Assembly (NCBI RefSeq): GCF_036378875.1
Contig: NZ_DASUVO010000140.1
Coordinates: forward strand, 30,864-94,863
Direction: 5' to 3'
Origin: Actinophytocola sp.
Lineage (GTDB): Bacteria > Actinomycetota > Actinomycetes > Mycobacteriales > Pseudonocardiaceae
Length of the DNA: 64,000 nt
This document shows positions 49,491 through 64,000 of the stretch, in pieces. The notes beneath the pieces are model-generated. The model did not search any database. It was not told the origin of the DNA and saw only the letters and a program-made list of their open reading frames with translations. The stretch's first letter is position 1. The number at the start of each line of letters is the position of its first letter. Made by a program: the position numbers and the translations under genes.

Positions 49491-50560
49491 CGGTCCTCCT
49501 CACGGTCGCCCGCCACCACGAGCCCTTCCTCGGCGACCTCCCGCACCGCGGCCATCGCCTCGGGCGTGAGGGCCTGGTCGAAGAGCGCGCGTGCGGTGGC
49601 GTACCGCTCGGCGGCGGCCGGGACGTCGGCCTGGTCCTCGGCCAGCCTGGTGCCCAGCTCCTCGATCGACAGGTATGCCCTGGCCCGCGCCTCCCGCAGC
49701 CCTTCCCTGGTCTCGCGCCTGCGCAGCGCCCACCGCAGGTACAGGACGAGCAACATCGCCACGACCGTGGCAGCCGCCGCGACCAGCGTGACGACGATCG
49801 CGGAGCCGGCCAGGTCGACCTTCTCCGGCCGCGGCAGGTCGTACACCGGCCGAGCGGGCGGTTCGGTCATCCGGTCCAGGACGGCGGTCACCACGTCCGT
49901 CGAGCGACCGCGGTTGAGGAGGACCGGGCCGTAGGCGGCGTTCCGCGCGTGTTCGGCCCGATCGGCGCCGGGGCCGGCGAACTCGAGCCAGGCCCCGTGC
50001 GCGACGACGACCAGCTCGCCGGGGAAGCGAGCCGCCAGCCTGCCCGCGTAGTCGACGTACACCGGCCCCATCGGGACCCGCGCCAGGCGAACGCCGTCGC
50101 GGGGTTGGCTCACGGTCAACTGGTCGAGCTGCGCGTCCGTGGCGGGCACGGTCGCCGGTGACGCCTGTTCGCCGAGCACGACGCCGGTGACGTCACCGTA
50201 GGCGAGGACCTGCCGCAGAACCCGCTCGTCGGCCGTCGCGAGTGGCCGCTCGCTTTCGGTGCCCTCGTACCGCTCGATCCACAGCCCTTCGACAACCGTG
50301 AGCGCGACTCCGGTGTCGCCGGCCCACTTCAGGAGGGCGACCAACCCCGGCGGCAGACCGGACTGGGGAGCGAGCAGCACCCTCTCGTCGTCGGGCACCC
50401 TGGCCACATCGACGGTGGTGACCGCACCGGGCAGCCGCACGACCCGGTTCTGGGAGAGCTGGTCGATCAGCTGCTGTGGATCCGGCGGTTGGGCGGTGGC
50501 CGGTGAGCCGGACAGCAGCAGGCACACGGCCGCCGCGAGCACCGCTCCCACCGTTCGCAT
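49487..50560 (-). CDS. Hypothetical secreted, C-terminally anchored protein
   Basis: Signal peptide MRTVGAVLAAAVCLLLSGSPATA; TM IVVTLVAAAATVVAMLLVLYL followed by RWALRRRE. Confidence 0.7.
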   Translation of the reverse strand: MRTVGAVLAAAVCLLLSGSPATAQPPDPQQLIDQLSQNRVVRLPGAVTTVDVARVPDDERVLLAPQSGLPPGLVALLKWAGDTGVALTVVEGLWIERYEGTESERPLATADERVLRQVLAYGDVTGVVLGEQASPATVPATDAQLDQLTVSQPRDGVRLARVPMGPVYVDYAGRLAARFPGELVVVAHGAWLEFAGPGADRAEHARNAAYGPVLLNRGRSTDVVTAVLDRMTEPPARPVYDLPRPEKVDLAGSAIVVTLVAAAATVVAMLLVLYLRWALRRRETREGLREARARAYLSIEELGTRLAEDQADVPAAAERYATARALFDQALTPEAMAAVREVAEEGLVVAGDREEDR

Positions 50561-50788
50561 GGCGGGCAGCTTCGCACGCAAGTGCCTGCCCTGTCTGGCA
50601 AACGGCCGCTCCCGTACGACCGGAAAGTTCCGTTCCGGAGGACTCCGCCCCAACCTGAACATTCTAGGGACACAACGAGATCTCGAAGACGGGACGGGTG
50701 ATCAGCGTCACGGTCGGGCCCCCTATCATGGCGCCGTCTACTCCCCCTCCTCCCCCGAGTTCGTCGCTCTCGAAAGGGCTCAACGACC

Positions 50789-51709
50789 ATGCCCGAGATC
50801 ATCAACACCCTCTTCGGCCGCTCCAAGAACGCCACGACCAGCCCCGGCGAGGAGGTCGAGCCGACCGTGATCGTGACCGTGGATCCGACGGACGACGCCA
50901 CCGCGACCGAGGAGGTCGCCGAGGGCGTCGAGACCGCGCCGAGTGCGGACAACGTCGTTGAGTCCACTGAAGACGAGTCCACCGACAACACACCGGCTGA
51001 CAGCGACTCCGAGAACAGCAGCGACGACGCCGCAGAGTCGGCCGATGTCGACGATCAGGCTGACGACGAGCCCGTCGCGGACGACGCCGCGATCGAGACC
51101 GATGCCGAGGAGTCCGAGCAGCCCGCCACGGACGAAGAAGCCGCCACGGACGACGACATCGCAGAAGACATCGCAGTAGACACTGCCGCCGAGGTCTCCG
51201 ATGAGGACGGCGGTAGCGCGGAGAACGTCGAGCCCGTCGCTGCCGAAGCCGATGACGCGCTGGTCGCTGCCGAGACCGCCGCCGACACCACCGACGTGGA
51301 CGCTGACGACGACACCGACGCTGACGCGGACGACGCCGAAGACGCCGACCAGATTGAGCCCGTCGTCGTGCCCGTCGTCGTGCCCGTCGTCGTGCCGGTC
51401 GCGTCCGAGGCTCGGCCCGCTGCGGGCGCTCGCGGGAGCGTCACCGTGGGCGAGGGGGTCGTCGCGAAGGTCGTGAACATCGTCGTCGGCAAGATCGATG
51501 GCGTGCACAGCATTGACGACGAGGGCATCTCGGTCGCGTTGGACAACGACATCGCCACGGTCAAGGTCTCGTTGGTGGTCGAGTTCGGACACGCGATCAA
51601 GGCGCTGGCCGAGCAGATCCGGGTCGACGTGATCGAGGCCGTCGAGCAGTTCCTCGGCCTCGACGTCGCGGCTGTGGACGTCCACGTCAGCGACATCCAC
51701 GCCGCCTGA
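50789..51709 (+). CDS. Asp23/Gls24 envelope-stress protein with a long acidic low-complexity N-terminus
   Basis: C-terminal RGSVTVGEGVVAKVV...VSLVVEFGHAIKALAEQIR...VDVHVSDIH; about 190 aa D/E/A/T-rich region before it. Confidence 0.85.
   Translation: MPEIINTLFGRSKNATTSPGEEVEPTVIVTVDPTDDATATEEVAEGVETAPSADNVVESTEDESTDNTPADSDSENSSDDAAESADVDDQADDEPVADDAAIETDAEESEQPATDEEAATDDDIAEDIAVDTAAEVSDEDGGSAENVEPVAAEADDALVAAETAADTTDVDADDDTDADADDAEDADQIEPVVVPVVVPVVVPVASEARPAAGARGSVTVGEGVVAKVVNIVVGKIDGVHSIDDEGISVALDNDIATVKVSLVVEFGHAIKALAEQIRVDVIEAVEQFLGLDVAAVDVHVSDIHAA
51359..51394 (+). repeat. 12-bp tandem repeat x3 (CCCGTCGTCGTG, PVVV)
   Basis: Three exact copies in frame at the junction between the acidic region and the Asp23 domain. 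Confidence 0.9.
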
Positions 51710-51773
51710 GGCGAGCAGCCACGACACTCGGTCCTGGATGCGAGAACGCGGCCAGGACCGAGTGTCAGCCGTT

Positions 51774-52982
51774 CTACCCCTCCGCCAAGAGCGGCCAGAT
51801 CGCGGCCGCCACCGCCAGCAGGCGATCGTCGTCACCGGAGGGAGTGGACAGCAGCACGCTGCCACGCAGACCACCCGGCAGCGCGCCATGCGGCACGGCG
51901 ACCCCCGGCAGACCGAAGTAGCTCAACAACATCGTCGTGCGCAGAGCCCGGCGGTTGGCCGTCGCCATCACGTCCAGGTCCGCCAGCAGCGGAGCAACCG
52001 CCGGCGCCGGGTCACGGACCGTCGGGCACAGCAGGACCGCGCCAGCCAACTCCTCGACCAACCGGTCCCGCAACCCCGCCTGCGCGGCACGCACCACCGG
52101 CTCACCGGCCGCGTTGAAGTCGGCCAACCGACGCAGCACCAAGGGATCCACATCGCTCGGCCCGGCCAAGAAGTGGCCATGCCGCGCATACGCCTCGGCG
52201 ACGGCCAGCGTGCCGTGCCGGTCCATCAGCTCCTGCGCTTCGCCCAACGACGGCAGCGGGCGGTGGTCGATCCGCACACCGGACCGCGCCAACGCGGCCA
52301 GCGTGTCCTCGAACGCGGTCCGGACGGCCGGGTCGCAGTCGTCCAGCAGCTCGCCGGTCGGGACCACACACCGGAACTCCGTCTCATGCGACTCGACCGG
52401 CGCGCCACGCAGCCACGCGTCGGCACGCACCGCGGCCGCGACGTCATGCGTGAACACACCGATCGTGTCGAGACTCGGCGCGAGCGGCTGCATGCCGGTG
52501 CGGTCGTAGCGATCGATGCTCGCCTTGTACCCCACCAACCCGCAGAACGCCGCCGGCACACGCACCGAACCGGAGGTGTCCGTGCCGACCGCCAGGTCCA
52601 CGATCCCGTCCGCCACCGCCACGGCCGACCCGGACGACGAGCCGCCCGGCACCCGGTCCGGCGCCAGCGGGTTGACCGGATTGCCGAAGTGCGGGTTCAA
52701 CCCCAGCCCCGAGAAAGCGAACTCGCTCTGGTTCGTCTTCCCGACACACACCGCGCCGCGGGCTGCCAGGTTCCGCACGATCGGCGCGTCCTCCGTTGCC
52801 ACCGGCACGTCGCGACGAGTCGCGGAACCGTTGGTGGTGCGTGTGCCGGCGACGTCGAACAGGTCCTTCCACGCGACCAGCGGGCCCGGTCCTTCCCGGC
52901 GCGCTCGCTCCGCCGTGACCGTGATGAACGCGGCCGACTCCCGCGCCCTGCGCAATGCCTCCTCGATCCGGTCAGACATCAT
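51774..52982 (-). CDS. Amidase-signature family amidase (short N-terminus)
   Basis: AWKDLFD (Lys), PGGSSSGS (cis-Ser) and GTDTSGSVRVPA (Ser nucleophile). Confidence 0.9.
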   Translation of the reverse strand: MMSDRIEEALRRARESAAFITVTAERARREGPGPLVAWKDLFDVAGTRTTNGSATRRDVPVATEDAPIVRNLAARGAVCVGKTNQSEFAFSGLGLNPHFGNPVNPLAPDRVPGGSSSGSAVAVADGIVDLAVGTDTSGSVRVPAAFCGLVGYKASIDRYDRTGMQPLAPSLDTIGVFTHDVAAAVRADAWLRGAPVESHETEFRCVVPTGELLDDCDPAVRTAFEDTLAALARSGVRIDHRPLPSLGEAQELMDRHGTLAVAEAYARHGHFLAGPSDVDPLVLRRLADFNAAGEPVVRAAQAGLRDRLVEELAGAVLLCPTVRDPAPAVAPLLADLDVMATANRRALRTTMLLSYFGLPGVAVPHGALPGGLRGSVLLSTPSGDDDRLLAVAAAIWPLLAEG

Positions 52983-53090
52983 CCACCCCCACGTCCACGT
53001 CCACGTCAGCGTGCCGGCAGTGTGACCGACAGGCGGCGGCGGTACGCGTCCAGGACCACCGCGACGCAGGGTGTTCGCCGACCCAGATGA

Positions 53091-54257
53091 CTATCGGAGA
53101 ATGAGCGGGAGCGACTGCAGACCGGTGAAGTCCGGCGAGGGCTGGGAGACCGGCGGTCGTTCCGGGTCGGTGCGCAGGTCAGGGTAGCGGTCGTACAGGA
53201 TGTTCAGCGCGACCCGGCCCTCCAGCCGGCTCACCGACGTGCCAAGGCAGAAGTGCACACCGAGCCCCCAGGACAGGTGCAGGTTGATGTCGCGGTTCGG
53301 GTCGAACTCGTGTGGGTTCGGGAAGATGCGTTCCTCACGGTTGGCCGCGCCGATCCACACCGAGACGAGCCGGTCGCGCGGGATCGCGTGCCCGCTGACT
53401 TCCGTGTCGACCATGGTCGCCCGGATGATGCGCTGGAACGGCGGGTACATCCGCAGCGACTCCTCGAGCGCTCCCGGCAGCAGTGTCCGGTCGTCGAGGA
53501 TCCGCTTGGCCTGCACGGGGTTGATGTCCAGCGCCAGCACGGTGTTGGCGAGCATCGACGCGGTGGTGACGTGCCCGGCGATCAGCATCAGGTTGGCGAA
53601 GTTGACGACCTGGGCGTCGGTGAGCCGCTCGCCGTCCACCTCCGCCTGGACCAGGGCAGTGAGCATGTCGTCGCGCGGGGAGCGCCGACGGTCGGTGGTG
53701 TGTTCGAGTAGGTAGGCACGCAACTGCTTGATGTCGGCGACGCGCTGCTCCATCGCGGCCGCCACGTCCTCCAGCGCGTCCTTGTCGCTGTTGAGGTGCT
53801 TGGTCATCAGCTGCTTGAACCAGACCCGGTCGGACCCGGGAACGCCGAGCATCTCGGCGATCACGATCACCGGCAGCGGGTAGGCGAGCGACTCCACCAG
53901 ATCCATCCGGTCCCCGTCGCCGGCCTCGTCCAGCAGCTCGTGGGTCAGCGCGGCGACGCGCGGCTCCAGGTCGGCGACCATCCTCGGCGTGAACCCGCGG
54001 TTGACGATCTTGCGCAGCTGGGTGTGCTCGGGTGGATCGAGCCGCACCATGTTCCCGTCGGTCAGTTCCGTCGCGAACTTGAACTTGCTCGGCATCAGCC
54101 GCTGGGAGTTGCTGGAGAAGGTCGCGGGATCCAGCATGATCTTCTGCGCGTCGTCGTATCCGTACACGTGGTGGATTCGCGTGTCCTCGTCGAACCGGAC
54201 CTTCGCGGGCGGCAGCTCCCCGCGCATCCAGACGTGCTGCTCATGCGTGTCGAACAC
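53091..54257 (-). CDS. Cytochrome P450, EryK/CYP113-like macrocycle-tailoring type
   Basis: LDPPEHTQLRK, AYPLPVIVIAEMLG, IAGHVTT, EESLR and WGLGVHFCLG heme motif. Confidence 0.9.
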   Translation of the reverse strand: MFDTHEQHVWMRGELPPAKVRFDEDTRIHHVYGYDDAQKIMLDPATFSSNSQRLMPSKFKFATELTDGNMVRLDPPEHTQLRKIVNRGFTPRMVADLEPRVAALTHELLDEAGDGDRMDLVESLAYPLPVIVIAEMLGVPGSDRVWFKQLMTKHLNSDKDALEDVAAAMEQRVADIKQLRAYLLEHTTDRRRSPRDDMLTALVQAEVDGERLTDAQVVNFANLMLIAGHVTTASMLANTVLALDINPVQAKRILDDRTLLPGALEESLRMYPPFQRIIRATMVDTEVSGHAIPRDRLVSVWIGAANREERIFPNPHEFDPNRDINLHLSWGLGVHFCLGTSVSRLEGRVALNILYDRYPDLRTDPERPPVSQPSPDFTGLQSLPLILR

Positions 54258-54370
54258 GGGACTCCCTCGGTTTCCGCGACGTCCTTGCCCGGACAGACAG
54301 GAAGTTACCGGCGCCGGACATGACAGGGCATCACCAAAGCTTGTCGTTCTGTCTCCGGTGCCGGCCGGGA

Positions 54371-54388
54371 CTACCCGCGTTGGGGATG
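54371..54388 (+). promoter_or_regulatory. RifZ-type (LAL/LuxR) binding site, exact CTACC-N8-GGATG
   Basis: CTACC CGCGTTGG GGATG in the divergent P450/acyltransferase intergenic region. Confidence 0.75.
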
Positions 54389-54459
54389 GCCTCGGCGAAC
54401 GGCGTGGGCAAGCCTGCTAACGACGGTGCGAGAACCAGAACCCTGACTGGAGGCAATTC

Positions 54460-55677
54460 GTGACGACAGTTGGAGTTTGGCGTGCGCTGTCACCAACCGA
54501 GAAGATCCAGGCCGGGCGAGAGTCCTACATCGGGTTCTCGGTGCGCGCCGCAGGCCGACTGGATCTTGGTGCCCTGACGACTGCCTACGAGGCCGTGTGT
54601 CGCGCCTATCCGCAGTTCGCGGCCCGGCTGGAAGCCGGCGACGACGGACCTGTTTTCACGGCGTCCGACGCCTTGCCGGACGTCCGTGTCCACGACGGAG
54701 ACCCCGAACGCCCGTTGTCCGGTGTGGACGTGGCTCAGCACCGGGCGTTGAGCGCGCTCAACGTCGTACGCGACGGCGACGACGTGAGTGTGTGTCTGGT
54801 AACCCATCACGGCATCGCCGACGCCGACCACGCCATCGCTGTGTTCGCCGCACTGTGGTCCTGCTACACCGATGTCGTGGCCGGCCTGCCCGTGGACCTG
54901 CCCAGTCATCCGTTTCCCAGGTCGTTGGAGGACCTGCTGGCCGAGCGCGGCATCCATGGTTCTGCCCCCACCGAAGCGGGTGTGGCGGTCCAACCGGTAT
55001 CCGAACAGCCCGCGGTCGTCCGGCACGTGGTCCAACATCGCCTGACGGTGGCGGAGACGACGGCACTGGCGGAACTCGGCCACCGTGAGCACGTGACGAT
55101 CAACGGCTTGTTGTCGGGCGCCATACTTCTCGCCGAGGCCGAGATTCGCGGGCTGCCGGTGACCGACCTGGTGTACCGGTTCACGGTGAACCTCCGCGGT
55201 CATCTCACTCCGCGGGTCGGTCCGACCGAGGGTACGAACGTGCTCGGCGGCGCGGGTTTCCAGGCCACCAACGGAATGGAACCCACCGCGGTGTCGATCG
55301 GTCGCGCGGTCGGTGAGCAGCTACGCGCGGGGCTGGCCGACGGTTCCATCCAGCGCAGCCTCCTCGACCTCGTCGCGCAGTCGAGGCCCGGCGCGAAACC
55401 GTGGGATCCGAGCAAGGCCCCCGCCATTGTCAGCATGATGAACTGGGGACCGATACCACCCATGCGCACACCGGAAGGTCTACTGTTGACCAACTTCCGC
55501 TCCGCCTCCCGCATCAGGGAGACCTCGGCCATGGGTGGCTACGTGGTGAGCACCTTCGACGGACGCACAGGTATCGATCTCACGTGGCCCGTCGACGATC
55601 CGGAACTGCCGAGGCGCCTCGACTGCCTGCGTGAACAGTTGGGCCGTTTGCGGTTGACCGACAAGCTTAACGGCTGA
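54460..55677 (+). CDS. PapA5-type acyltransferase resembling rifamycin C-25 O-acetyltransferase Rif-Orf20
   Basis: RALSPTE...LTTAYEAVCRAYPQFAARL N-terminus, HHGIADA (HHxxxDG-like) catalytic motif and FTVNLRGHL. Confidence 0.8.
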   Translation: MTTVGVWRALSPTEKIQAGRESYIGFSVRAAGRLDLGALTTAYEAVCRAYPQFAARLEAGDDGPVFTASDALPDVRVHDGDPERPLSGVDVAQHRALSALNVVRDGDDVSVCLVTHHGIADADHAIAVFAALWSCYTDVVAGLPVDLPSHPFPRSLEDLLAERGIHGSAPTEAGVAVQPVSEQPAVVRHVVQHRLTVAETTALAELGHREHVTINGLLSGAILLAEAEIRGLPVTDLVYRFTVNLRGHLTPRVGPTEGTNVLGGAGFQATNGMEPTAVSIGRAVGEQLRAGLADGSIQRSLLDLVAQSRPGAKPWDPSKAPAIVSMMNWGPIPPMRTPEGLLLTNFRSASRIRETSAMGGYVVSTFDGRTGIDLTWPVDDPELPRRLDCLREQLGRLRLTDKLNG

Positions 55678-55680
55678 GGC

Positions 55681-57111
55681 GTGCCGATGTCCGCCGCCGG
55701 ACTGCTGACCACGACCGACGACGACCTGCTGCACCGGTTCACGGAGTCGGCCAACACACAGGACCGGGTGCTGGTCCCGACGCCCTCGTTCCGCAGCTGG
55801 TTCGCCGAACGCGTGCAGGCCAACAGCTATCGGGTCACGCGAGTTCCGTTCGGCGGGCTGTCCGGCTGGCGGTTCCAACCGGACACCGGGAACCTCGTGC
55901 ACGACAGCGGCCGGTTCTTCACGATCGAAGGACTGTCGGTGAACACCGACCACAGCGAGCGCGCGCACTGGACGCAGCCGATCATCCGGCAGCCGGAGAT
56001 CGGCATCCTCGGCATTCTGGTCAAGGAGTTCAACGGTGTCCTGCACTGCCTGATGCAGGCCAAGATGGAGCCGGGCAACGTCAACCTGACCCAGCTCTCC
56101 CCCACCCTGCAGGCCACCCGCAGCAACTACACCCGGGTACACAAGGGAAAGCCCATTCCGTACCTGGAGTACTTCATGGCACCGTGGCGTGGCCGGGTGC
56201 TGGTCGACGTGCTGCAGTCCGAGCAGGGCGCGTGGTTCCTGCACAAGCGCAACCGCAACATGGTCATCGAGGTCACCGACGACATCCCGGTGCTCGAGGA
56301 CTTCTGCTGGCTGACGCTGGCGCAGCTGCACGAGCTGCTGCACGTCGACAACCTGGTCAACATGGACTCGCGGACGGTGCTGTCCGGCATCCCGTTCGCC
56401 GCGCCGGTCGACCGGCCGTCCATGCTCGACGAGGACTCGTTCCGCGGCGCGCTCCTGCGGTCCCTGGCCGAGCGCAAGGGCGCGCTGCACGAGCTGCCAT
56501 CGTTGCTGAGCTGGTTCACCGAGGCCAAGACCAAGCACAGCCTTGACCAGCAACGGATCCCGCTCAACCAGGTGTCCAGGTGGCACGCCACCGACGAGCA
56601 CATCAGCCGTGACGACGGCAAGTACTTCACGGTGATCGGCGTCGACGTCCGTGCGAGCAACCGCGAGGTGGCGCACTGGACGCAGCCGATGCTGGCGCCG
56701 GTCGGCCAGGGGCTGCTCGCCTTCCTTGCCAAGCGGATCGGTGGCGTGCTGCACGTGCTCGTCCAGGCCCGCACGCAGGCGGGCACGTTCGACGTGATCG
56801 AGATGGCCCCGACCGTGCACTGCACGCCGGAGAACTACGCTGGCGCCGAGCCGCCGCCGTACCTACGAGAGGTGCTGGAGGCCCCACCCGAGGCGATCAA
56901 GCACGACGTCGTGCACTCGGAGGAGGGCGGCCGCTTCCACCACGCGGAGAACCGCTACCTGGTCGTCGAGGTCGGTGACGACTTCCCCGTCGAGGTGCCA
57001 CCGGACTTCATCTGGATGACCGCGCGGCAGGCCACCGATCTGGTGCGGTACAGCAACTACTTCAACGTCGAGGCACGCAGCCTGCTGACGTGCCTGCACA
57101 CCCTGTGGTGA
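55681..57111 (+). CDS. NDP-4-keto-6-deoxyhexose 2,3-dehydratase (EryBVI/OleV/Rif-Orf18 family)
   Basis: LVHDSGRFF, WTQPIIRQPEIGILG, LMQAKMEPGN, QLSPTLQATRSNY, LQSEQGAWFLHKRNRN and HSEEGGRF. Confidence 0.95.
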   Translation: MPMSAAGLLTTTDDDLLHRFTESANTQDRVLVPTPSFRSWFAERVQANSYRVTRVPFGGLSGWRFQPDTGNLVHDSGRFFTIEGLSVNTDHSERAHWTQPIIRQPEIGILGILVKEFNGVLHCLMQAKMEPGNVNLTQLSPTLQATRSNYTRVHKGKPIPYLEYFMAPWRGRVLVDVLQSEQGAWFLHKRNRNMVIEVTDDIPVLEDFCWLTLAQLHELLHVDNLVNMDSRTVLSGIPFAAPVDRPSMLDEDSFRGALLRSLAERKGALHELPSLLSWFTEAKTKHSLDQQRIPLNQVSRWHATDEHISRDDGKYFTVIGVDVRASNREVAHWTQPMLAPVGQGLLAFLAKRIGGVLHVLVQARTQAGTFDVIEMAPTVHCTPENYAGAEPPPYLREVLEAPPEAIKHDVVHSEEGGRFHHAENRYLVVEVGDDFPVEVPPDFIWMTARQATDLVRYSNYFNVEARSLLTCLHTLW

Positions 57112-57161
57112 GCCGGACGCGCGAAGAAGATCGCCGCCGATAGTCTGATGAGGAATCGGTG

Positions 57162-57182
57162 AACCGTTGCCGCACAACGGTT
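57162..57182. promoter_or_regulatory. Perfect inverted repeat AACCGTTG-N5-CAACGGTT upstream of the multicopper oxidase
   Basis: aaccgttg ccgca caacggtt, about 35 bp before the oxidase ATG. Confidence 0.45.
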
Positions 57183-57217
57183 GTACTCCCATGAGAAAAC
57201 GCAGGAGAAAATACCTG

Positions 57218-59197
57218 ATGGATGATTCCGTCGACCGTCGAACCTTCCTCGCCTCGGCCGTGCTCGGGTCCGCGGGCGTCGTGGCGGGCGTGAGCCTGCT
57301 CGGTGCGAGTGCCCCGGGTGCGACGGCCTCGGCGGCGACAGGCCGCGGACGATTAGCACCGTCCGCGGCGCCGAACTTCGGTCTCACCAAGTTCCTCGAC
57401 GCGCTGAGGATTCCGCCGGCGATCCGGTCATCCTCGCGACAGAACCTGGACGATCTCACGATCACGATGACCAATGCGCGGATACGGCTGCACTCGCAGC
57501 TGCCCGAGACCACGGTGTGGGCCTACGAGGGACAGTTCCCCGGCCCGACCATCGAGGTGCGTAGCGGCAGGCGGCTGCGGGTCGCGTGGACCAACGAGCT
57601 CGAGGGCACGGTCCCGCTCGTGGCGGTGCGGGCGCCGTTCGCGCAGCCGACACCGGCGAACGTGCCCGGCTACCGCAACCCGGACGGCAGCCTGCCCGCC
57701 GGGGTCGAGCTGATCGACGGTGTCGCCGAACTGCCGCCGTGGAACGTCGTGCACCTGCACGGCGCGCTGACGAACGGCGGCAACGACGGCTGGGCGCACA
57801 ACGGCATGCTGCCGGGGAGCACGCAGCTCACCGAGTACCCGAACCGCCAGGCGGCGACGGCACTCTGGTACCACGACCACGCGATGGCCGTGACGCGCTT
57901 CAACGTGTTCGCCGGTCTGGCCGGCATGTACCTGATCCGGGACGACGAGGAGGACGCGCTCGGACTCCCGGGCGGTGACCACGAGATCCCGCTGATCATC
58001 GCCGACCGCAACCTGGACACCGACCCCGCGACCGGCGCGCTCACCGGTCAACTGCTGTTCAAGTTCCAGTACCTGCCAGCGAACGGCATAGCTGCCCCCG
58101 TCACCGGCCCGTTCACCCTCGTCAACGGCGTCATCTGGCCGCACCTCGACGTCGAGAAGCGCTGGTACCGCTTCCGCGTGCTCAACGCGGCGAACGCCCG
58201 GTTCTTCCGTCTCAACCTGGTCGACGAGGCGGGCACCGTCCAGAACGACGCGGTCCGGATCGCGGGCACGGACTCCGGCCTGCTGCCCGCCCCGGCGCCG
58301 ATGCCCGCGGGCGGGCTGACACTCGCCCCGGCCGAGCGGGCCGACCTGCTGATCGACTTCAGCCGGTTCCCGGGGCAGCGGCTGCGTCTCGTCAACACCG
58401 GTGCCACGGTCGAGCCGGACATCATGGAGTTCCGCGTCGGGAACCAGGGCCAGCCCGACCCGTTCCAGTTGCCGGCCCGACTGTCCACATCGTACGTCCG
58501 ACTGGCACATGGCACGACCGTGCCGGAGGACCACGACGAGGTGTTCGTGGCGACGACCTCTGCCGGTGTGGCCGGCCGAGCGCACCCGGAGATGTGGGAG
58601 CTGACGGAGATCACCGACCCGGACGAGCTGCCGGAGCAGTTCCCTGCGGAGGGGGTCATCCAGCTCACCGACCCCGCGACGGGAAACGTGCGAACGTTCC
58701 GGAAGGTCGCGCGCCTGTTCGACGACACGACGACGATCTTCATCGACCGAGGCCGGTGGGTGGTGTGGAACCTGCTCCAGCTCGGCGGGGCCCCGCACCC
58801 GACGCACATCCACATGGCGCGGTTCCAGCTGCTGACCCGGCGGACCTTCACCGACCTGACGGCTTTCGACATCGCGGCCGGCGGCACCACCCGGCCGCTG
58901 CCCGCACCGAACGACGGCCCGCCGATCGAGAAGTACGAGGAGGGCTGGAAGGAAACCTTCAACCTGCGGCAGGGTGAGTGGATCACGGTCGCCGGCCAGT
59001 TCGAGGGCGCGACCGGCGAGTTCATGTACCACTGCCACATCCTCGACCACGAGGACGAGGGCATGATGCGCCCCTTCGTCGTACACCCCGCCGAGGTGGC
59101 CCGGTTCCACATGCACTCGGGTGGCTCCAACCACGGCGGGCATTCAGCCGCCTCCAGCAACACCGCGCCCTCGAGCGGCCACGGTGGGCACTCGTAA
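57218..59197 (+). CDS. Tat-exported multicopper oxidase (PhsA/CotA-like) with a His-rich tail
   Basis: DRRTFL twin-arginine signal; all four Cu motifs (VHLHG, WYHDH, HPTHIH, YHCHILDHEDEGMM); AGGAGA RBS. Confidence 0.92.
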   Translation: MDDSVDRRTFLASAVLGSAGVVAGVSLLGASAPGATASAATGRGRLAPSAAPNFGLTKFLDALRIPPAIRSSSRQNLDDLTITMTNARIRLHSQLPETTVWAYEGQFPGPTIEVRSGRRLRVAWTNELEGTVPLVAVRAPFAQPTPANVPGYRNPDGSLPAGVELIDGVAELPPWNVVHLHGALTNGGNDGWAHNGMLPGSTQLTEYPNRQAATALWYHDHAMAVTRFNVFAGLAGMYLIRDDEEDALGLPGGDHEIPLIIADRNLDTDPATGALTGQLLFKFQYLPANGIAAPVTGPFTLVNGVIWPHLDVEKRWYRFRVLNAANARFFRLNLVDEAGTVQNDAVRIAGTDSGLLPAPAPMPAGGLTLAPAERADLLIDFSRFPGQRLRLVNTGATVEPDIMEFRVGNQGQPDPFQLPARLSTSYVRLAHGTTVPEDHDEVFVATTSAGVAGRAHPEMWELTEITDPDELPEQFPAEGVIQLTDPATGNVRTFRKVARLFDDTTTIFIDRGRWVVWNLLQLGGAPHPTHIHMARFQLLTRRTFTDLTAFDIAAGGTTRPLPAPNDGPPIEKYEEGWKETFNLRQGEWITVAGQFEGATGEFMYHCHILDHEDEGMMRPFVVHPAEVARFHMHSGGSNHGGHSAASSNTAPSSGHGGHS

Positions 59198-59211
59198 CCA
59201 CTAACACAACG

Positions 59212-59248
59212 ACCGACCCGCAGTGCCCATGGGGCGCTGCGGGTCGGT
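59212..59248. terminator. Bidirectional hairpin terminator
   Basis: 17-bp stem ACCGACCCGCAGTGCCC / GGGCGCTGCGGGTCGGT (one G-T pair) with a 3-nt loop, between the convergent oxidase and P450 genes. Confidence 0.8.
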
Positions 59249-59271
59249 TCGGTCCTGGTCGGCGTACGCCT

Positions 59272-60534
59272 TTATGGTGCGTCCCAGGTGATCGGCAGTT
59301 CCTGCACGCCATAGGCGAGCATGTCGGGGCGCAGGGGGACCTCCTCTGGCGGCACCGTGAGGCGAAGATTGGGCAGGCGTCGCAACAGTTCGACGTAGCC
59401 GACCGCCAGCTCCATCCGGGCCAGTTGCTGGCCGAGGCACTGGTGCACGCCGTGGCCGAACGCCATGTGTGAGGTCCGCACCCGGTTCAGGTCCAGCTTG
59501 TCCGGCTCCTTCCAGTGCTCACTGTCCCAGTTGACGGCCAGCAGCGAGATCACCACGGTCGAGCCGGCCGGGATGTGCTCGCCGCCGAGTTCCAGGTCCT
59601 CCTTGGGGAACCGGAAGACTCCGGTGTTGCTGACCGACAGGAAGCGCAGCAGCTCCTCGACCGCGTCGCCGACGCGGGACGGGTCGTCGCGCAGCATGGC
59701 GAGTTGCTCGGGGCGCTGCAGCAACACGAAAATGCCCAGCCCCAACATTCTCGCCGTGGTTTCGAAGCCGGCGATGAGCACCAGGTTGATCATATTGATC
59801 AACTCGTCGTCGGTGAGCGCCGGATCGGCCCCTGCGTGGTGGATCAGGCCGGAGATGATGTCGTCGACCGGGTTCTCGCGCTTGTCCGTCACCAGCCGCT
59901 GTATGAACGCGCGCAGGGCTTCGTAGTTCTCCTGCGCCACCGTGATCGGCACGTCCATCTGCATCAGTGCCGCCGCGCGTTCCTGGAACTCCGCCCGGTC
60001 CTCGTAGCGCACCCCGAGCATCTCGCAGATCACCAGCGAGGGCACCGGGAACGCGAAGTCCGCCATCAGATCGGCGGTGTTTCCCTTGGCCAGCATGGCA
60101 TCCAGCTGCGCGGTGACGATCTCCTCGATCCGTTCGCCGAGTATGCGGATCCGGCGGACCGTGAACTGCCCGGTGAGCAACTTGCGGTAGCGGGAGTGCT
60201 CCGGCGGATCCATGTTGATGAACGACCCGGCGCGCGCCTTGTCGTCCCGCATCTTCGCCTTGGTTTCCTCGGACAGCTGTTTGAACCTGGGGTGGTAGGT
60301 GAACCGGTCGGCGGAGAACCGCGGGTCCGACAGCACCGCACGAGCCTCTTCGAACCCGGACACCAACCAGAACGGGTCACCGGTGGGCAGCGCCGCCTTG
60401 GTGATCGGGGTTCGCTCGTTCTGGTTCGCCAGGGCCGACGGCAGCGTGAACGGGTCTTCGCGGTAGAAGAACTCGAGGGGAAGCGGTGCGCGGAGTGATT
60501 CGCCGGCTGGCGGATTCTCGGTCTTCTGGGTCAC
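59272..60534 (-). CDS. rif16: Cytochrome P450 (CYP105 clan), Rif16-like
   Basis: IAGFETT, EELLR and FGHGVHQCLG. Distinctive segments (REDPF, YHPRFK, RDDKARAGSFINMDPPEH, LIHHAGADPALTDDELIN, C-terminal WDAP) match my recall of A. mediterranei Rif16. Coupled directly downstream of a split transketolase. Confidence 0.8.
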   Translation of the reverse strand: MTQKTENPPAGESLRAPLPLEFFYREDPFTLPSALANQNERTPITKAALPTGDPFWLVSGFEEARAVLSDPRFSADRFTYHPRFKQLSEETKAKMRDDKARAGSFINMDPPEHSRYRKLLTGQFTVRRIRILGERIEEIVTAQLDAMLAKGNTADLMADFAFPVPSLVICEMLGVRYEDRAEFQERAAALMQMDVPITVAQENYEALRAFIQRLVTDKRENPVDDIISGLIHHAGADPALTDDELINMINLVLIAGFETTARMLGLGIFVLLQRPEQLAMLRDDPSRVGDAVEELLRFLSVSNTGVFRFPKEDLELGGEHIPAGSTVVISLLAVNWDSEHWKEPDKLDLNRVRTSHMAFGHGVHQCLGQQLARMELAVGYVELLRRLPNLRLTVPPEEVPLRPDMLAYGVQELPITWDAP

Positions 60535-61460
60535 CGCGAAGCCTCCCCGTCCTCAAGGAAGCCGGTGATCGACTCGGCCAGGCTCGCGGCGTCCAGCCCG
60601 TGCAGCCGGTCGTGGTCCGCGGCACTTCCATAGGCGCGCACCTCCTGGTCCCGCCGGACACCGAGTGATCGCAGCCGGTGCGGCACGTCGCCGAGCGCCT
60701 CGGCCACCTCGTGCGCGGAGGTCCCACGCAGATAGGGCTCGACCATCACCACGTTCGGCGCCGATGCCACCACCGCCGAGCGCAGACCCGCGTGGTCGAA
60801 CGGCCGGACCGTGGACGCGTACAGCACTGTCACGTCCATAGTGGACGTCGCGGCGAGGACGGCCGCCAGCACCGGACCGACCGCGACCACCACACCGGCG
60901 CCACCCTGGCGCAGCACGGTGAACCCGTCCGAGAGCGGAATCGCCTCGCTGTGGACCTTGTCGGACAGTCGCAGGTAGACCCGGCCGTCACCGGCGATCG
61001 CCTTCCGCAGCAGCGGCTCGACCTCGTCCTCGTGGCCCGGCACGTGCACGGTCCAGCCGGGCACCGTGTCGAGCAGCGCCACGTCGCCGGGCGCCTGGTG
61101 GGTCCGGCCCCTCGGTATGTCGTCGTAGGAACTGCCGATGCCGACCAGCACGGCGCCGACGTCCTGGTGTCCGAGGCTGATCTTGATCTGCTCGAACGGC
61201 CGCTCGACCAGGAACGGCGCGTAGGTGTGCACCACCGGCCGGTACCCGGCCAGCGACAGGCCGCCCGCGATCCCGATCATCGCCTGTTCACGGATCCCGA
61301 CGTTGACCACCCGCTCCGGATACCGGGCCCGCGCCTCGTTGAAGAACGGTGACGAGATGTCCGCGGTCACCAGGGCCAGCTTGGAGTTGGTGGACAAGGA
61401 CTCGACCACGGTCTCGACGAAGACGAGACGCATCAGCTTTCGGGTCACCTGAGTGGTCAC
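60531..61460 (-). CDS. rif15b: Split transketolase, pyrimidine-binding/C-terminal subunit (Rif15b-like)
   Basis: VNVGIREQAMIG, HTYAPFLVERPFEQIK, THQAPGD and DRLHGLD; its stop overlaps the P450 start. Confidence 0.8.
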   Translation of the reverse strand: MTTQVTRKLMRLVFVETVVESLSTNSKLALVTADISSPFFNEARARYPERVVNVGIREQAMIGIAGGLSLAGYRPVVHTYAPFLVERPFEQIKISLGHQDVGAVLVGIGSSYDDIPRGRTHQAPGDVALLDTVPGWTVHVPGHEDEVEPLLRKAIAGDGRVYLRLSDKVHSEAIPLSDGFTVLRQGGAGVVVAVGPVLAAVLAATSTMDVTVLYASTVRPFDHAGLRSAVVASAPNVVMVEPYLRGTSAHEVAEALGDVPHRLRSLGVRRDQEVRAYGSAADHDRLHGLDAASLAESITGFLEDGEASR

Positions 61461-61533
61461 GACTGGTCCGCCTCCCCGGATTCAGATGTGTTGGTCACGT
61501 TGGGGAAGGCACGTCCTGTTGACACAGGAAGTG

Positions 61534-62223
61534 TCATGCCATTCCCCCCGCGCTGTCGTGGATCTCCGCGACCACGGCCTGTGGCCGCCCGTCGCGTGCC
61601 TGGGTCAGCGCCCGGTACAGCTCGTCGTGGTCGCGACCGTCCACAGTGGTCGTGAGCCAGTTCTCCGACTCGAAGCGCCTGGCGATGCCACCCGGCCAGC
61701 CGAGGCTCGCCGAGGAGTTGTCGATCACGATCGCGGTGAGCTGGTCGAGCCCGAGCCGCCCGGCGATCGCGATCGCCTCGTGGTTGCTGCCCTCGTCGAA
61801 CTCACCGTCGCCCAACATCACGACGACCCGGGCGCTGCGGCCGTCGGCACGCAGCCCGAGCACGGTCCCCACGCCGAGCGGGAGCCCTTGCCCGAGGGAG
61901 CCACTGCTGATCTCGACCCCGGGCACCAGCACCCGGTCCGGGTGCAGACCGAGCGGCGAGCCGAGCTTGGCCCAGGTGTTCAACTCGTCCGGGTCGATGA
62001 AGCCCTTCGCGGCGAGCACCGCGTAGTAGGGCATCGGCGCGTGGCCCTTGGAGAGATAGAACCGGTCCCGGTCGGGATCGTCGATGTTCGCCGGCGACAC
62101 GTTGAGCACGCGGTCGTAGAGCACCCAGATCGCGTCCTGCGTCGACGTCAGCGACAACATGTGCGCGTTGCCCCCGACCATCCTGTCGATGAAGCCTTGT
62201 AACGTCTGTTCTGTCGTCTGCAC
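61534..62223 (-). CDS. rif15a: Split transketolase, ThDP-binding N-terminal subunit (Rif15a-like)
   Basis: DRDRFYLSKGHA, GLHPD, SSGSLGQGL and GDGEFDEGSNHEA...VIDN ThDP motif. Start is GTG 62223 or TTG 62238. Confidence 0.8.
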   Translation of the reverse strand: MQTTEQTLQGFIDRMVGGNAHMLSLTSTQDAIWVLYDRVLNVSPANIDDPDRDRFYLSKGHAPMPYYAVLAAKGFIDPDELNTWAKLGSPLGLHPDRVLVPGVEISSGSLGQGLPLGVGTVLGLRADGRSARVVVMLGDGEFDEGSNHEAIAIAGRLGLDQLTAIVIDNSSASLGWPGGIARRFESENWLTTTVDGRDHDELYRALTQARDGRPQAVVAEIHDSAGGMA

Positions 62224-62365
62224 TGGTTCCACCTGCAACGCTTCCCGGGTTGTGGTGATCAGGCCGGCTTGCGGACCGTCAGGAGAAGTCCAGTCTTGCC
62301 CAGACCGCTCGTCCAGGACATCACCAACGTGGGTAGCGGTGGCAGGCCCCGGCACCGGCCAAGCC

Positions 62366-62383
62366 CTATCAGGTTGAGGGATG
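62366..62383 (+). promoter_or_regulatory. RifZ-type binding site, CTATC-N8-GGATG (one mismatch)
   Basis: CTATC AGGTTGAG GGATG in the divergent transketolase/glycosyltransferase intergenic region. Confidence 0.65.
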
Positions 62384-62528
62384 CTCGGCCGGTCGCCCCT
62401 TCCCTATCGTTCGAAAGCGGTGCCGTAACGCGCCCGCGCACGCCAGGGCGCGCGAGGCGGCGACACCGACGAGGTGGACGACGAGGTCGTAGCGAGCCAC
62501 CATCCGCACGGACTGCCGCCAGGAGGAC

Positions 62529-63683
62529 TTGTTGAAGGTCATCATTCTTTCCGGGATCACCCCCTCGACGTTCTTCGCTCATGTCTCGCTCGCAACGGCC
62601 CTGCGCGACGCCGGGCACCAGGTGATGGTGACCGCCGCCGCCGACGACGTGATCCCGAGCATCGCGGCGGCCGGGCTCCCCGCCCTACCGGTCATGGAGC
62701 CGGGACTGACCCGAGAGCAGATCTTCGCCGAGGCCGGGCTGGCACGGGTGCCGGAGGACGCCGTCGAACGTGAGTACATGGCGGGTCGGTGGTTCGCGCT
62801 CATCGAGACCAAGCCGCTCGACGCCCTCCTGGCGTTCGCCAAGGACTGGCGCCCGGATGTCGTCGTCGGGGGCATGCTGGCCTATGGCGCGCCGCTGCTG
62901 GCGGCCCGTCTCGGGGTCCCGTACGTGCGGCAGGCCTGGGACATCCACAACCCGAAACTGTTCGACGCGGGGGCGGCGTTCCAGTTGCGGGAGGCGTTGG
63001 CGGAGCTGGGGCTGGACGGCCTTCCCGAACCCGACATGATGATCGAGGTCATGCCGCCGAGCCTGCGCACACCGGAGACCAAGCCCGCGCAGGCGATGCG
63101 GTGGATCGCGGGCAACTCGCAGTGTCGCCTGGAACCGTGGATGTACACCAAGGGTGCGGACACCCGGATCGGCGTCACCATCGGGACGGGAGTGGCGGAC
63201 TACAACCAGTACGACTTCGTCGAGGGCATCGTCAAGAACATCGCCACCCTCGACGTCGAGGTGGCGGTGGCGGTCCCCCAGGCCGCCGTCCCCGTCCTGC
63301 GGGAACGCCTGGACGAGAACGTCCCGGTGGGCTGGGCCCCGCTCGACGTCCTCGCACCCACCTGCGATGTCCTGGTGCACCAGAGTGGTGGCAGCACCAT
63401 GATGACGGCGTTGAGCTTCGGGGTGCCTCAGATCCTGCTCCCCGACGCCGGGCAGTTCCGCCAGGGCGACATGGCACGCCGCCTCGTCGAGGCCGGCGCC
63501 GCACTGACACTCTCCCACGAGCAGGCCACGACCGAGATCATCGCTGAGACCTGCCAAGAGATGATCTCCAACCCGAGCTACGCCGCGGCCGCGGCCGGGC
63601 TCGCCAAGGAGATCGCCGCGCTGCCCCTGCCATCCGAGGTGGCCAGGCGCATCGAGTGGCTCGTCCACGAAACGTCCGCATGA
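62529..63683 (+). CDS. GT1 natural-product deoxysugar glycosyltransferase (UrdGT2/EryCIII-like)
   Basis: AGGAGG RBS + TTG; LATALRDAGHQV, WRPDVVVG, GWAPLDVLAPTCDVLVHQSGGSTMMTALSFGVPQILLP. Confidence 0.9.
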   Translation: MLKVIILSGITPSTFFAHVSLATALRDAGHQVMVTAAADDVIPSIAAAGLPALPVMEPGLTREQIFAEAGLARVPEDAVEREYMAGRWFALIETKPLDALLAFAKDWRPDVVVGGMLAYGAPLLAARLGVPYVRQAWDIHNPKLFDAGAAFQLREALAELGLDGLPEPDMMIEVMPPSLRTPETKPAQAMRWIAGNSQCRLEPWMYTKGADTRIGVTIGTGVADYNQYDFVEGIVKNIATLDVEVAVAVPQAAVPVLRERLDENVPVGWAPLDVLAPTCDVLVHQSGGSTMMTALSFGVPQILLPDAGQFRQGDMARRLVEAGAALTLSHEQATTEIIAETCQEMISNPSYAAAAAGLAKEIAALPLPSEVARRIEWLVHETSA

Positions 63684-63709
63684 CACCGGAACGGACACAG
63701 GAGGTGGCG

Positions 63710-64000
63710 ATGCGGTTCAACGCTTTGCGGGTCGCGGTCGCGGCGATGGTGGCCCTGTCCTTGGCTGTGCCGGCTCAGGCCAGCCAGCGGCAGGAGGAGC
63801 CGGTTTCGCTGGTGGGCAAGAAGATCCTGTTGGCCAACGACGACGGCGTCCAGGCGGCGAACCCCAACGGATCGGACGGCCGGGGCCTTTACGTGCTTCG
63901 GCGGGCGTTGTGTCGTGCTGGCGCCGACGTGGCGATCGTCGGACCATGGACACAACAGAGCGGACGAAGCCGGGCCACGTCGGGGGCCGGCGTCGTGTCC
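63710..64000 (+). CDS. surE: Secreted SurE-like acid phosphatase/nucleotidase, truncated by the window end
   Basis: Manual translation: MRFNALRVAVAAMVALSLAVPAQA (signal peptide)...KILLANDDG...QQSGRS, the SurE NDDG and QSG motifs. Confidence 0.75.
   Translation, partial: MRFNALRVAVAAMVALSLAVPAQASQRQEEPVSLVGKKILLANDDGVQAANPNGSDGRGLYVLRRALCRAGADVAIVGPWTQQSGRSRATSGAGVVS

What the first reader, a model, noticed from the sequence alone, without database searches (positions are those of the whole stretch)
54371..62383. RifZ-type boxes in both divergent promoters define the regulon and its left border
Seen: exact CTACC-N8-GGATG at 54371-54388 and CTATC-N8-GGATG at 62366-62383, one in each divergent intergenic region of the block. 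Established: this motif is the reported footprint of RifZ, the LuxR/LAL pathway activator of the rif cluster. This is non-coding support independent of the protein calls. Inference: all four transcription units are co-activated, including the non-canonical EryK-like P450 and possibly the oxidase and amidase.
Basis: partly seen in the sequence, partly recalled or inferred. Interest (0 to 1): 0.8.

Follow-up and report, generated by a model that had tools for sequence, protein, structure and literature searches.

The report
RifZ-type activator boxes, rifamycin-like cluster
The two short DNA motifs are real and belong to a set of four conserved binding sites for the known rifamycin pathway activator RifZ, one in front of each of four promoters at the left end of a rifamycin/kanglemycin-like antibiotic gene cluster, which is the expected regulatory logic for this family and not a new kind of system.

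Summary
Observation confirmed and extended. CTACCCGCGTTGGGGATG (54371-54388) and CTATCAGGTTGAGGGATG (62366-62383) are present: 2 hits against 0.06 expected, and none in about 1.5 Mb of non-rif control loci. Each divergent intergenic region also holds a second, outward-facing box on the minus strand (54329-54346; 62319-62336). A weight matrix trained only on other genomes ranks these four sites 1-4 of 127,966 window positions. All four lie 21 nt upstream of a -10-like hexamer, which suggests an activator site in place of the -35 element. The same paired, back-to-back layout fills all four divergent regions of the canonical A. rifamycinica rif cluster next to the RifZ orthologue. Box and -10 are invariant in orthologous promoters from Amycolatopsis, Actinophytocola and soil metagenomes, while the spacers drift. 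The window encodes no RifZ. Two RifZ homologues with a near-invariant HTH are recorded on a contig of the same length (102,603 bp) as the window's own protein, which is indirect evidence. Corrections: there are four boxes, not two; RifZ is a ~400-aa LuxR/GerE protein without an ATPase domain, so it is not a LAL; the amidase has no box and is absent from syntenic relatives, so the border lies just left of the P450. Binding and activation are inferred, not shown. This is a new member of a known kind, of modest interest.

The parts
54371..54388 (+). RifZ-type box of the Rif20-like operon promoter (CTACCCGCGTTGGGGATG)
   Evidence: PWM score 17.2 bits, rank 2 in the window. The same box subtype lies upstream of Rif20 orthologues in L086, L087 and L088.
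54410..54415 (+). -10-like hexamer AAGCCT, 21 nt after the box
   Evidence: The TGGGC-AAGCCT block is invariant in alignment A4.
54329..54346 (-). Degenerate RifZ-type box of the P450 promoter (CGACAAGCTTTGGTGATG on the minus strand)
   Evidence: PWM score 10.3 bits, rank 4. It is not significant alone (about 1.1 such hits expected per window). However, AACGAC.AG..T..G.GAT is invariant in five orthologous promoters (A3), and the L053 orthologue scores 17.8 bits.
54302..54307 (-). -10-like hexamer TAACTT, 21 nt after the minus-strand box
   Evidence: GTAA is invariant in A3.
62319..62336 (-). RifZ-type box of the transketolase/P450 (rif15A-15B-16-like) operon promoter (CTACCCACGTTGGTGATG)
   Evidence: PWM score 12.9 bits, rank 3. 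It is 16/18 identical to the 54371 box. It aligns with the Rif20p boxes and the A. rifamycinica orf7 promoter box (A4).
62292..62297 (-). -10-like hexamer AAGACT, 21 nt after the box
62366..62383 (+). RifZ-type box of the glycosyltransferase operon promoter (CTATCAGGTTGAGGGATG)
   Evidence: PWM score 31.1 bits, rank 1. The 18-mer is identical to L053:15079-15096. Box plus downstream CCCTTCCCTAYCGTYCGAA resembles the A. rifamycinica orf13 promoter.
62405..62410 (+). -10-like hexamer TATCGT, 21 nt after the box
53091..54257 (-). Cytochrome P450, non-canonical for rif; leftmost box-controlled gene
   Evidence: Pfam p450. Orthologues of 82-87% identity lie next to Rif18/GT in kanglemycin-type loci L001, L046 and L053.
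54460..55677 (+). PapA5-type acyltransferase (Rif-Orf20-like)
   Evidence: Pfam PapA_C. 65% identical to the A. mediterranei protein P0179 and 66% to the A. rifamycinica protein P0188.
55681..57111 (+). NDP-hexose 2,3-dehydratase (Rif-Orf18-like), 3 nt after the acyltransferase
   Evidence: Pfam. 89-91% identical to L001, L046 and L053.
57167..59197 (+). Multicopper oxidase, third gene of the operon
   Evidence: Pfam Cu-oxidase_2/3. Homologues include 'copper oxidase' of eDNA rifamycin-congener clusters.
59272..60534 (-). Cytochrome P450 (Rif-Orf16-like), last gene of the leftward operon
   Evidence: Pfam. Gene order matches the metagenome contig of P0001.
60531..61460 (-). Transketolase subunit B (Rif15B-like)
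   Evidence: Pfam.
61534..62223 (-). Transketolase subunit A (Rif15A-like); start revised to GTG 62223
   Evidence: Pfam. The syntenic orthologues are 229-230 aa. An AGGTGGA RBS precedes GTG 62223.
62529..63683 (+). EryCIII-type glycosyltransferase
   Evidence: Pfam. 77-80% identical to the GT of L001 and L053.
63710..64000 (+). SurE-like gene (truncated by the window end), continuing the GT operon
   Evidence: tblastn gives 75% identity to the SurE-like gene that follows the GT in L001.
51774..52982 (-). Amidase, probably outside the cluster (flank)
   Evidence: Pfam Amidase. It has no box and is absent beside the P450 in L001, L046, L053, L088 and the P0001 contig.

Best explanation
The window's right-hand 11 kb is the left end of a rifamycin-family (kanglemycin-related) biosynthetic cluster from an uncultured Actinophytocola-like actinomycete. 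Its two divergent intergenic regions each carry two back-to-back 18-bp operators of the RifZ type (consensus CTAYCAGNNYGRGGGATG, an imperfect YATC-N9-GATG inverted repeat). Each box points toward its gene and ends 21 nt upstream of a -10-like hexamer, so it covers roughly -51 to -34 and occupies the place of a -35 element. A RifZ-family LuxR-type activator encoded elsewhere in the cluster most likely binds each box as a dimer and recruits RNA polymerase in the manner of a class-II activator. This would switch on four transcription units together: P450 (leftward); acyltransferase, 2,3-dehydratase and multicopper oxidase (rightward); transketolase A, transketolase B and P450 (leftward); and glycosyltransferase, SurE-like and further genes (rightward). 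Shown here: the sequences, their statistics, their conservation and spacing, and the conserved HTH of candidate regulators. Inferred: binding, activation, transcription start sites, and that the regulators lie on the same contig.
For: The motif is present and enriched. A PWM trained only on other genomes ranks the four sites 1-4 of 127,966 window positions, and the next best scores 8.9 bits. In 1.16 Mb of non-rif high-GC DNA nothing reaches 17 bits except one site that itself has the full promoter architecture. In A. rifamycinica, each of the four divergent regions beside the RifZ orthologue has two back-to-back boxes, with no other hit at one mismatch or fewer in 21 kb. This matches the published 10 operons, six promoter regions and four divergent pairs, all activated by RifZ (PMC7062684). 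26 of 31 boxes from 9 loci have [T/A]ANNNT 19-23 nt downstream (mode 21) against 0.9% background. Orthologous promoter alignments show box and -10 invariant with drifting spacers. The RifZ-family HTH (ISRHTVAFHLKKV) is almost invariant across genera, including P0280 and P0308. Both are recorded on a contig of 102,603 bp, the same length as for the window's own protein P0121.
Against: There are no binding, transcription-start or expression data for this organism, and no RNA runs exist. The two minus-strand boxes are weak by PWM (10.3 and 12.9 bits, with about 1.1 and 0.3 such hits expected per window by chance), so their case depends on position, orientation and conservation. Two of the four -10-like hexamers start with A rather than T. 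The 31 boxes are partly orthologous, so the binomial P value overstates independence. The published consensus could not be read in the primary paper.
Confidence: 0.8

Rival explanations
1. Only the two strong plus-strand boxes found by the reader are functional operators. One bound activator per intergenic region drives both divergent promoters, and the weak minus-strand matches are conserved for other reasons, such as promoter UP or -35 elements.
For: The minus-strand boxes score only 10.3 and 12.9 bits, a level expected about once per window by chance. The P450 box has CGACA instead of CTAYC.
Against: The minus-strand boxes sit 24 and 29 nt from the plus-strand boxes in the same back-to-back layout seen eight times in A. 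rifamycinica. Each is exactly 21 nt from a -10-like hexamer. They are invariant in orthologues. The 62319 box is 16/18 identical to the exact-consensus box at 54371.
Confidence: 0.12
2. The conserved 18-mers are promoter elements read by something other than a RifZ-type protein, for example a dedicated sigma factor or another regulator such as the SARP/AfsR-like protein at 24855-28478 or the ECF sigma at 8229-9119.
For: The box replaces the -35 element at a fixed distance from the -10. The window encodes a SARP-type regulator and an ECF sigma but no LuxR protein.
Against: These genes lie 26-45 kb away among unrelated genes. The box has no tandem heptamer repeats of the SARP type and is not an ECF-like -35/-10 pair. 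The motif co-occurs with RifZ orthologues across genera. RifZ is reported to activate all rif promoters directly (PMC7062684).
Confidence: 0.05
3. The matches are chance occurrences of a short degenerate pattern in GC-rich DNA.
Against: 2 observed against 0.06 expected. None occur in about 1.5 Mb of control loci. The spacer is also conserved, and the PWM rank, the orientation and the 21-nt coupling to the -10 all agree.
Confidence: 0.01

Closest known systems
RifZ (AMED_0655) regulon and RifZ box of the Amycolatopsis mediterranei U32 rif cluster (Li et al. 2017, AEM 83:e03201-16; summarised in PMC7062684)
   Same: The core motif is the same (CTACC-N8-GGATG, from my recall of the abstract). The boxes lie in divergent promoter regions of orthologous tailoring operons (orf20, orf18, orf15A/B, orf16, GT). 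The regulator family has a nearly invariant LuxR HTH. The published pattern of ten operons, six promoter regions and four divergent pairs matches the paired boxes seen in A. rifamycinica.
   Different: The host is a different genus (probably Actinophytocola). Gene order is rearranged: orf19, orf14, orf13 and rifR are absent from this stretch, and a kng-type P450 and GT module is inserted. Two RifZ paralogues are probably present instead of one. The commonest variant in all loci is CTATC rather than CTACC. No experimental binding data exist here.
Kanglemycin (kng) and eDNA 'RifCon' rifamycin-congener clusters (Peek et al. 2018, PMC6175910)
   Same: The rif-type tailoring genes are accompanied by an extra P450, deoxysugar genes and a glycosyltransferase. 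The window's P450, 2,3-dehydratase and GT are 77-91% identical to those of Amycolatopsis loci that also carry mutase, CoA-transferase and carboxyltransferase genes. Many top protein hits are 'uncultured bacterium' eDNA proteins.
   Different: No K-acid genes (mutase and others) are visible in the part of the cluster inside the window. The product is unknown. The paper mentions no LuxR regulator (0 occurrences of 'LuxR').
LAL (large ATP-binding LuxR) pathway activators such as PikD or GdmRI/RII (from general knowledge)
   Same: They have a C-terminal LuxR/GerE HTH and act as pathway-specific activators of polyketide clusters. P0280 gives a weak MalT-type TPR signal (E = 8.6e-4, below the Pfam cutoff).
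   Different: RifZ-family proteins have no AAA/Walker ATPase domain and are only 378-455 aa, against about 900-1100 aa for LAL proteins. They are therefore not members of that family.
Class II activator sites overlapping the -35 region, e.g. the LuxR lux box centred near -42.5 (from general knowledge)
   Same: An imperfect inverted repeat of about 18-20 bp lies immediately upstream of, and overlaps, the -35 position of a promoter that lacks a recognisable -35 hexamer. No sigma-70-type -35/-10 pair was found in 50500-64000.
   Different: The transcription starts are only predicted here. The box is strongly asymmetric and oriented toward the gene.

Membership tests
RifZ box / RifZ regulon (rifamycin cluster) | Sequence matches the RifZ box consensus CTACC-N8-GGATG | tested here: met
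   There is one exact match, two with one mismatch and one with two mismatches. A PWM built from boxes of other rif clusters ranks them 1-4 in the window. The consensus itself is recalled from memory and could not be read.
RifZ box / RifZ regulon (rifamycin cluster) | Boxes lie in promoter regions of rif-type operons, as in the canonical cluster | tested here: met
   All four lie in the two divergent intergenic regions flanked by Rif20-, Rif15A-, GT- and P450-type genes. The layout is the same in A. rifamycinica.
RifZ box / RifZ regulon (rifamycin cluster) | A RifZ orthologue is encoded in the same cluster or genome | tested here: inconclusive
   None is in the window. P0280 and P0308 (67-68% identical to RifZ, HTH conserved) are recorded on a contig of 102,603 bp, the same length as the window's own P0121. 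The contig could not be fetched.
RifZ box / RifZ regulon (rifamycin cluster) | Physical binding of RifZ (EMSA, DNase I footprint) | not testable with these tools
   This needs purified protein.
RifZ box / RifZ regulon (rifamycin cluster) | RifZ-dependent transcription of the downstream operons | not testable with these tools
   No RNA runs hold this DNA.
   RifZ (406 aa), P0280 (455 aa) and P0308 (378 aa) have only GerE above threshold.
Rifamycin-family (kanglemycin-related) biosynthetic gene cluster | Orthologues of rif tailoring genes in conserved local order | tested here: met
   Rif20-, Rif18-, Rif16- and Rif15A/B-like genes and a GT are present. The order is identical on a metagenome contig.
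Rifamycin-family (kanglemycin-related) biosynthetic gene cluster | AHBA synthesis genes and rif-type modular PKS | not testable with these tools
   These would lie beyond coordinate 64000, and the rest of the contig is not retrievable.
SARP operator (because a SARP/AfsR-like gene is in the window) | Tandem heptameric direct repeats at 11-nt periodicity upstream of the -10 | tested here: not met
   The 18-mer consensus has no direct heptamer repeat. The SARP-like gene lies 26 kb away.

The most novel reading that the evidence does not exclude
The cluster uses two box subtypes. One is CTATCAG..GGGGGATG followed by a TAGCCT-like -10. The other is CTACCCRCGTTGGKGATG followed by GGGC-AAGCCT. The contig probably encodes two RifZ paralogues that are 74% identical. 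The subtypes might be read differently, either by different paralogues or at different activator concentrations, so that tailoring operons (acyltransferase/oxidase and transketolase against the sugar/GT module) are switched on in sequence rather than together.
Probability: 0.1. Interest if true: 0.5.

Novelty: new member of a known kind. Interest (0 to 1): 0.3.

Why it matters
The result gives sequence-level, protein-independent support that this block is a functional, co-regulated part of a rifamycin-congener cluster. It fixes the cluster's left border just beyond the P450. It provides a sharper operator model (an 18-bp oriented box, 21 nt, then the -10) that works across Amycolatopsis, Actinophytocola and soil metagenomes. 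That model can be used to delimit rif-type clusters, to predict out-of-cluster regulon members, and to choose the regulator to over-express when activating silent kanglemycin-like clusters from uncultured bacteria. It does not reveal a new regulatory principle.

Tried and rejected
Only 3 of 80 loci were rif-type, and neither the source genome nor A. mediterranei was recovered. The other 77 loci served as background.

2. Exact look-ups of the window's GT, its Rif20 protein (P0121) and the two candidate regulators all returned 'not on record', so the rest of the contig could not be read.

3. The closest syntenic metagenome contig (P0001) gave gene calls but no DNA.

4. The metagenome scan with Rif20 gave only two short loci.

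5. The primary RifZ paper is not held under its PMC id or PubMed id. Full-text searches for the consensus string and for 'RifZ box' found nothing, and a 'rifz' + 'ctacc' substring search returned only irrelevant papers.

6. The closest oxidase homologues in A. tolypomycina and A. ultiminotia turned out to lie in an NmrA-P450-oxidase cassette outside any rif cluster. My provisional label 'Rif17-like' for the oxidase is therefore not secure, and the canonical A. rifamycinica stretch has no such gene.

7. Terminator and RNA-fold scans of the P450-amidase gap were uninformative.

8. No RNA-seq runs carry this DNA.

9. SARP, ECF-sigma and LysR genes in the window were considered as alternative regulators and set aside on distance and motif type.
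Full report
OBSERVATION. The pattern CTAYC-N8-GGATG occurs twice in the window against 0.06 expected from dinucleotide-preserving shuffles. It does not occur at all in 77 non-rif loci (about 1.5 Mb) fetched later, whereas the three rif-type loci among the same 80 have 2-3 copies each.

GENE CONTEXT. The DNA is about 70% GC and looks actinomycete. Coding frames were picked by third-position GC and named with Pfam.

- 51774-52982 (-): amidase
- 53091-54257 (-): cytochrome P450
- 54460-55677 (+): PapA5-type acyltransferase (Rif-Orf20-like)
- 55681-57111 (+): NDP-hexose 2,3-dehydratase (Rif-Orf18-like)
- 57167-59197 (+): multicopper oxidase
- 59272-60534 (-): P450 (Rif-Orf16-like)
- 60531-61460 (-) and 61534-62223 (-): transketolase subunits B and A
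- 62529-63683 (+): EryCIII-type glycosyltransferase
- 63710 onward (+): SurE-like gene, cut by the window end

A soil-metagenome contig whose oxidase is 86% identical has exactly this gene order, and its transketolase A is 229 aa. This moves the window's rif15A start to GTG 62223, behind an AGGTGGA ribosome-binding site. The second divergent intergenic region is therefore 62224-62528. Everything left of about 53 kb is unrelated: Asp23-like, DUF72, GT87, penicillin amidase, a monooxygenase, and a SARP-like, a LysR and an ECF-sigma regulator, among others.

MORE BOXES THAN REPORTED. Allowing one mismatch reveals CTACCCACGTTGGTGATG at 62319-62336 on the minus strand. It is 16/18 identical to the 54371 box, spacer included. 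I built a position weight matrix from 13 boxes taken only from other genomes and scanned both strands of the window. The four best of 127,966 positions were:

- 62366-62383 (+): 31.1 bits
- 54371-54388 (+): 17.2 bits
- 62319-62336 (-): 12.9 bits
- 54329-54346 (-): 10.3 bits (CGACAAGCTTTGGTGATG)

The next best scores are 8.9 and 8.2 bits, far away in unrelated genes. Each divergent region therefore contains two boxes placed back to back, 24 and 29 nt apart, each pointing at its own gene. Taken alone, the two weak boxes are not significant. First-order Markov simulations give about 1.1 hits per window at 10.3 bits or more, and 0.3 at 12.9 or more. Their case rests on position, orientation, spacing and conservation, described below.

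THE CANONICAL CLUSTER HAS THE SAME ARCHITECTURE. Through the Rif20 homologue of Amycolatopsis rifamycinica I fetched 21 kb of the canonical rif cluster end. It contains rpoB, a 406-aa GerE protein (the RifZ orthologue), rifJ, orf16, orf15B/A, orf14, orf13, rifR, orf20, orf19, orf18, orf10 to orf5. This order agrees with the published U32 order (PMC8788734). Its four divergent intergenic regions each hold exactly two back-to-back boxes, and there is no other hit with one mismatch or fewer in the 21 kb. This fits the published description: ten operons share six promoter regions, four pairs are divergent, and RifZ directly activates all of them (PMC7062684).

PROMOTER GEOMETRY. I collected 31 boxes scoring 9 bits or more from nine rif-type loci. 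The consensus is CTAYCAGNNYGRGGGATG, and 26 of the 31 are followed 19-23 nt downstream (usually 21) by [T/A]ANNNT. The background frequency is 0.9%, giving a nominal binomial P of about 2e-48, which is overstated because many of the sites are orthologous. In the window all four have the 21-nt spacing:

- Rif20 promoter: AAGCCT at 54410-54415
- P450 promoter: TAACTT at 54302-54307 (-)
- rif15A promoter: AAGACT at 62292-62297 (-)
- GT promoter: TATCGT at 62405-62410

No sigma-70-type -35/-10 pair is detectable anywhere in 50500-64000. The box therefore spans roughly -51 to -34 and takes the place of the -35 element. That is the geometry of a class-II activator site. The transcription starts are inferred, not mapped.

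PHYLOGENETIC FOOTPRINTS. I aligned the P450 promoter from the window, a metagenome contig (L088) and three Amycolatopsis kanglemycin-type loci. The box core (AACGAC.AG..T..G.GAT), the GTAA of the -10 and the ribosome-binding region are invariant, while the 21-nt spacer keeps its length but not its sequence. I also aligned the Rif20 promoters of the window, L086, L087 (Actinophytocola sp.) and L088 with the window's rif15A promoter and the A. rifamycinica orf7 promoter. CTACCC.C.TTGG.GATG and TGGG.RAG are invariant at fixed spacing. The window's GT promoter resembles the A. rifamycinica orf13 promoter, including the CCCTTCCCTAYCGTYCGAA stretch downstream of the box.

THE REGULATOR. The window has no RifZ homologue by tblastn, and no GerE/LuxR gene among its ORFs. 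A search with A. rifamycinica RifZ found 135 homologues in rif-producing genera and in eDNA clusters. Two of them, P0280 (455 aa, 67% identical) and P0308 (378 aa, 68%), are both labelled Actinophytocola sp. and recorded on a contig of 102,603 bp. That is exactly the contig length recorded for the window's own Rif20 protein, P0121. Look-ups of all three fail in the same way, as expected if the source contig is withheld. I therefore infer, without having shown it, that the cluster to the right of the window encodes two RifZ paralogues, which are 74% identical to each other. Their LuxR HTH, including the recognition helix ISRHTVAFHLKKV, is almost invariant from Amycolatopsis to Actinomadura, Kutzneria and Micromonospora. 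This explains why the same box is conserved across genera. Pfam finds only GerE, plus a sub-threshold MalT-type TPR signal, and no ATPase domain. These proteins are LuxR-family but not LAL.

CLUSTER TYPE AND LEFT BORDER. The window's P450, 2,3-dehydratase and GT are 77-91% identical to neighbours in three Amycolatopsis loci. Those loci also carry methylmalonyl-CoA-mutase-like, CoA-transferase and carboxyltransferase genes. Peek et al. describe the same gene set for kanglemycin-type clusters, where an extra P450 (kng28), deoxysugar genes and a GT (kng26) are proposed to build the K-sugar and methylenedioxy bridges (PMC6175910). Assigning the window's P450 to kng28 is a lead only; I did not test it.

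No box lies left of 54329. The gene next to the P450 differs in every relative: another P450 with its own box in L001, L046 and L053; a zinc-type alcohol dehydrogenase/reductase in L088; and an 80-aa ORF plus a glyoxalase on the P0001 contig. The amidase is therefore not a conserved cluster member, and the border lies between 52982 and 53091. The 108-nt gap shows no terminator-like structure, so passive read-through into the amidase cannot be excluded.

VERDICT. The interpretation as RifZ-type operators marking a co-activated set of four transcription units is well supported computationally, and it is strengthened by the two additional boxes. Three details need correcting: the number of boxes, the 'LAL' label, and the inclusion of the amidase. 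Mechanistically this is the known RifZ system in a new host and a rearranged, kanglemycin-related cluster, so it is a new member of a known kind. The useful additions are the oriented 18-bp consensus, the paired layout, the fixed 21-nt coupling to the -10, and the cross-genus conservation. Binding, transcription starts and regulator dependence remain to be shown experimentally.

Noticed in passing
L082:7487-7504 (+), Amycolatopsis ultiminotia BAAAZN010000001.1: A 26.9-bit RifZ-type box (CTACCAGAACGAGGGATG, 21 nt, TAGCCT) lies about 80 nt upstream of an NmrA-P450-multicopper-oxidase operon. The operon is not in a rif cluster, although its oxidase is 79% identical to the window's. The same cassette in A. 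tolypomycina (L081) and the NmrA gene at the edge of Actinophytocola locus L087 have no box. This may be an out-of-cluster member of the RifZ regulon.
   Followed up: partly
Off-window (proteins P0280 and P0308); also contigs of 442,335, 70,367 and 34,627 bp: Several rif-like clusters appear to encode two RifZ paralogues on one contig. The two from the window's presumed contig are 74% identical, and P0280 has a Phe-to-Cys change in the otherwise invariant recognition helix.
   Followed up: partly
window 54371-54415 and 62292-62336; L083:19123-19140; L086:2562-2579; L087:1933-1950; L088:3922-3939: There is a distinct box subtype, CTACCCRCRTTGGKGATG, followed by ..GTGGGC-AAGCCT (a -10-like element beginning with A). 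It recurs at the Rif20, rif15A and orf7 promoters. The majority type is CTATCAG..GGGGGATG followed by a TAGCCT-like -10.
   Followed up: partly
L088:5301-5318 (+): In the metagenome relative, the 2,3-dehydratase gene has its own strong box (29.7 bits) in a 248-nt gap after the acyltransferase gene. In the window the two genes are only 3 nt apart with no internal box, so operon structure differs between close relatives.
   Followed up: no
window 62411-62528: The predicted 5' untranslated region of the glycosyltransferase operon is unusually long, about 112 nt from the predicted start near 62417 to TTG 62529. I did not examine it for structure or a small ORF.
   Followed up: no
window 24855-28478 (-), 8229-9119 (+), 15575-16465 (-): A large SARP/AfsR-type regulator (Trans_reg_C, BTAD and AAA_16 domains; 1207 aa), an ECF-type sigma factor and a LysR regulator lie in the unrelated left part of the window. 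There is no evidence linking them to the rif-like block.
   Followed up: no
window 57167-59197: The multicopper oxidase is present in the window, in eDNA rifamycin-congener clusters and in kanglemycin-type loci. It is absent from the canonical A. rifamycinica stretch between orf18 and orf10. JGI names some homologues 'o-aminophenol oxidase'. Its role in the pathway is unclear.
   Followed up: no
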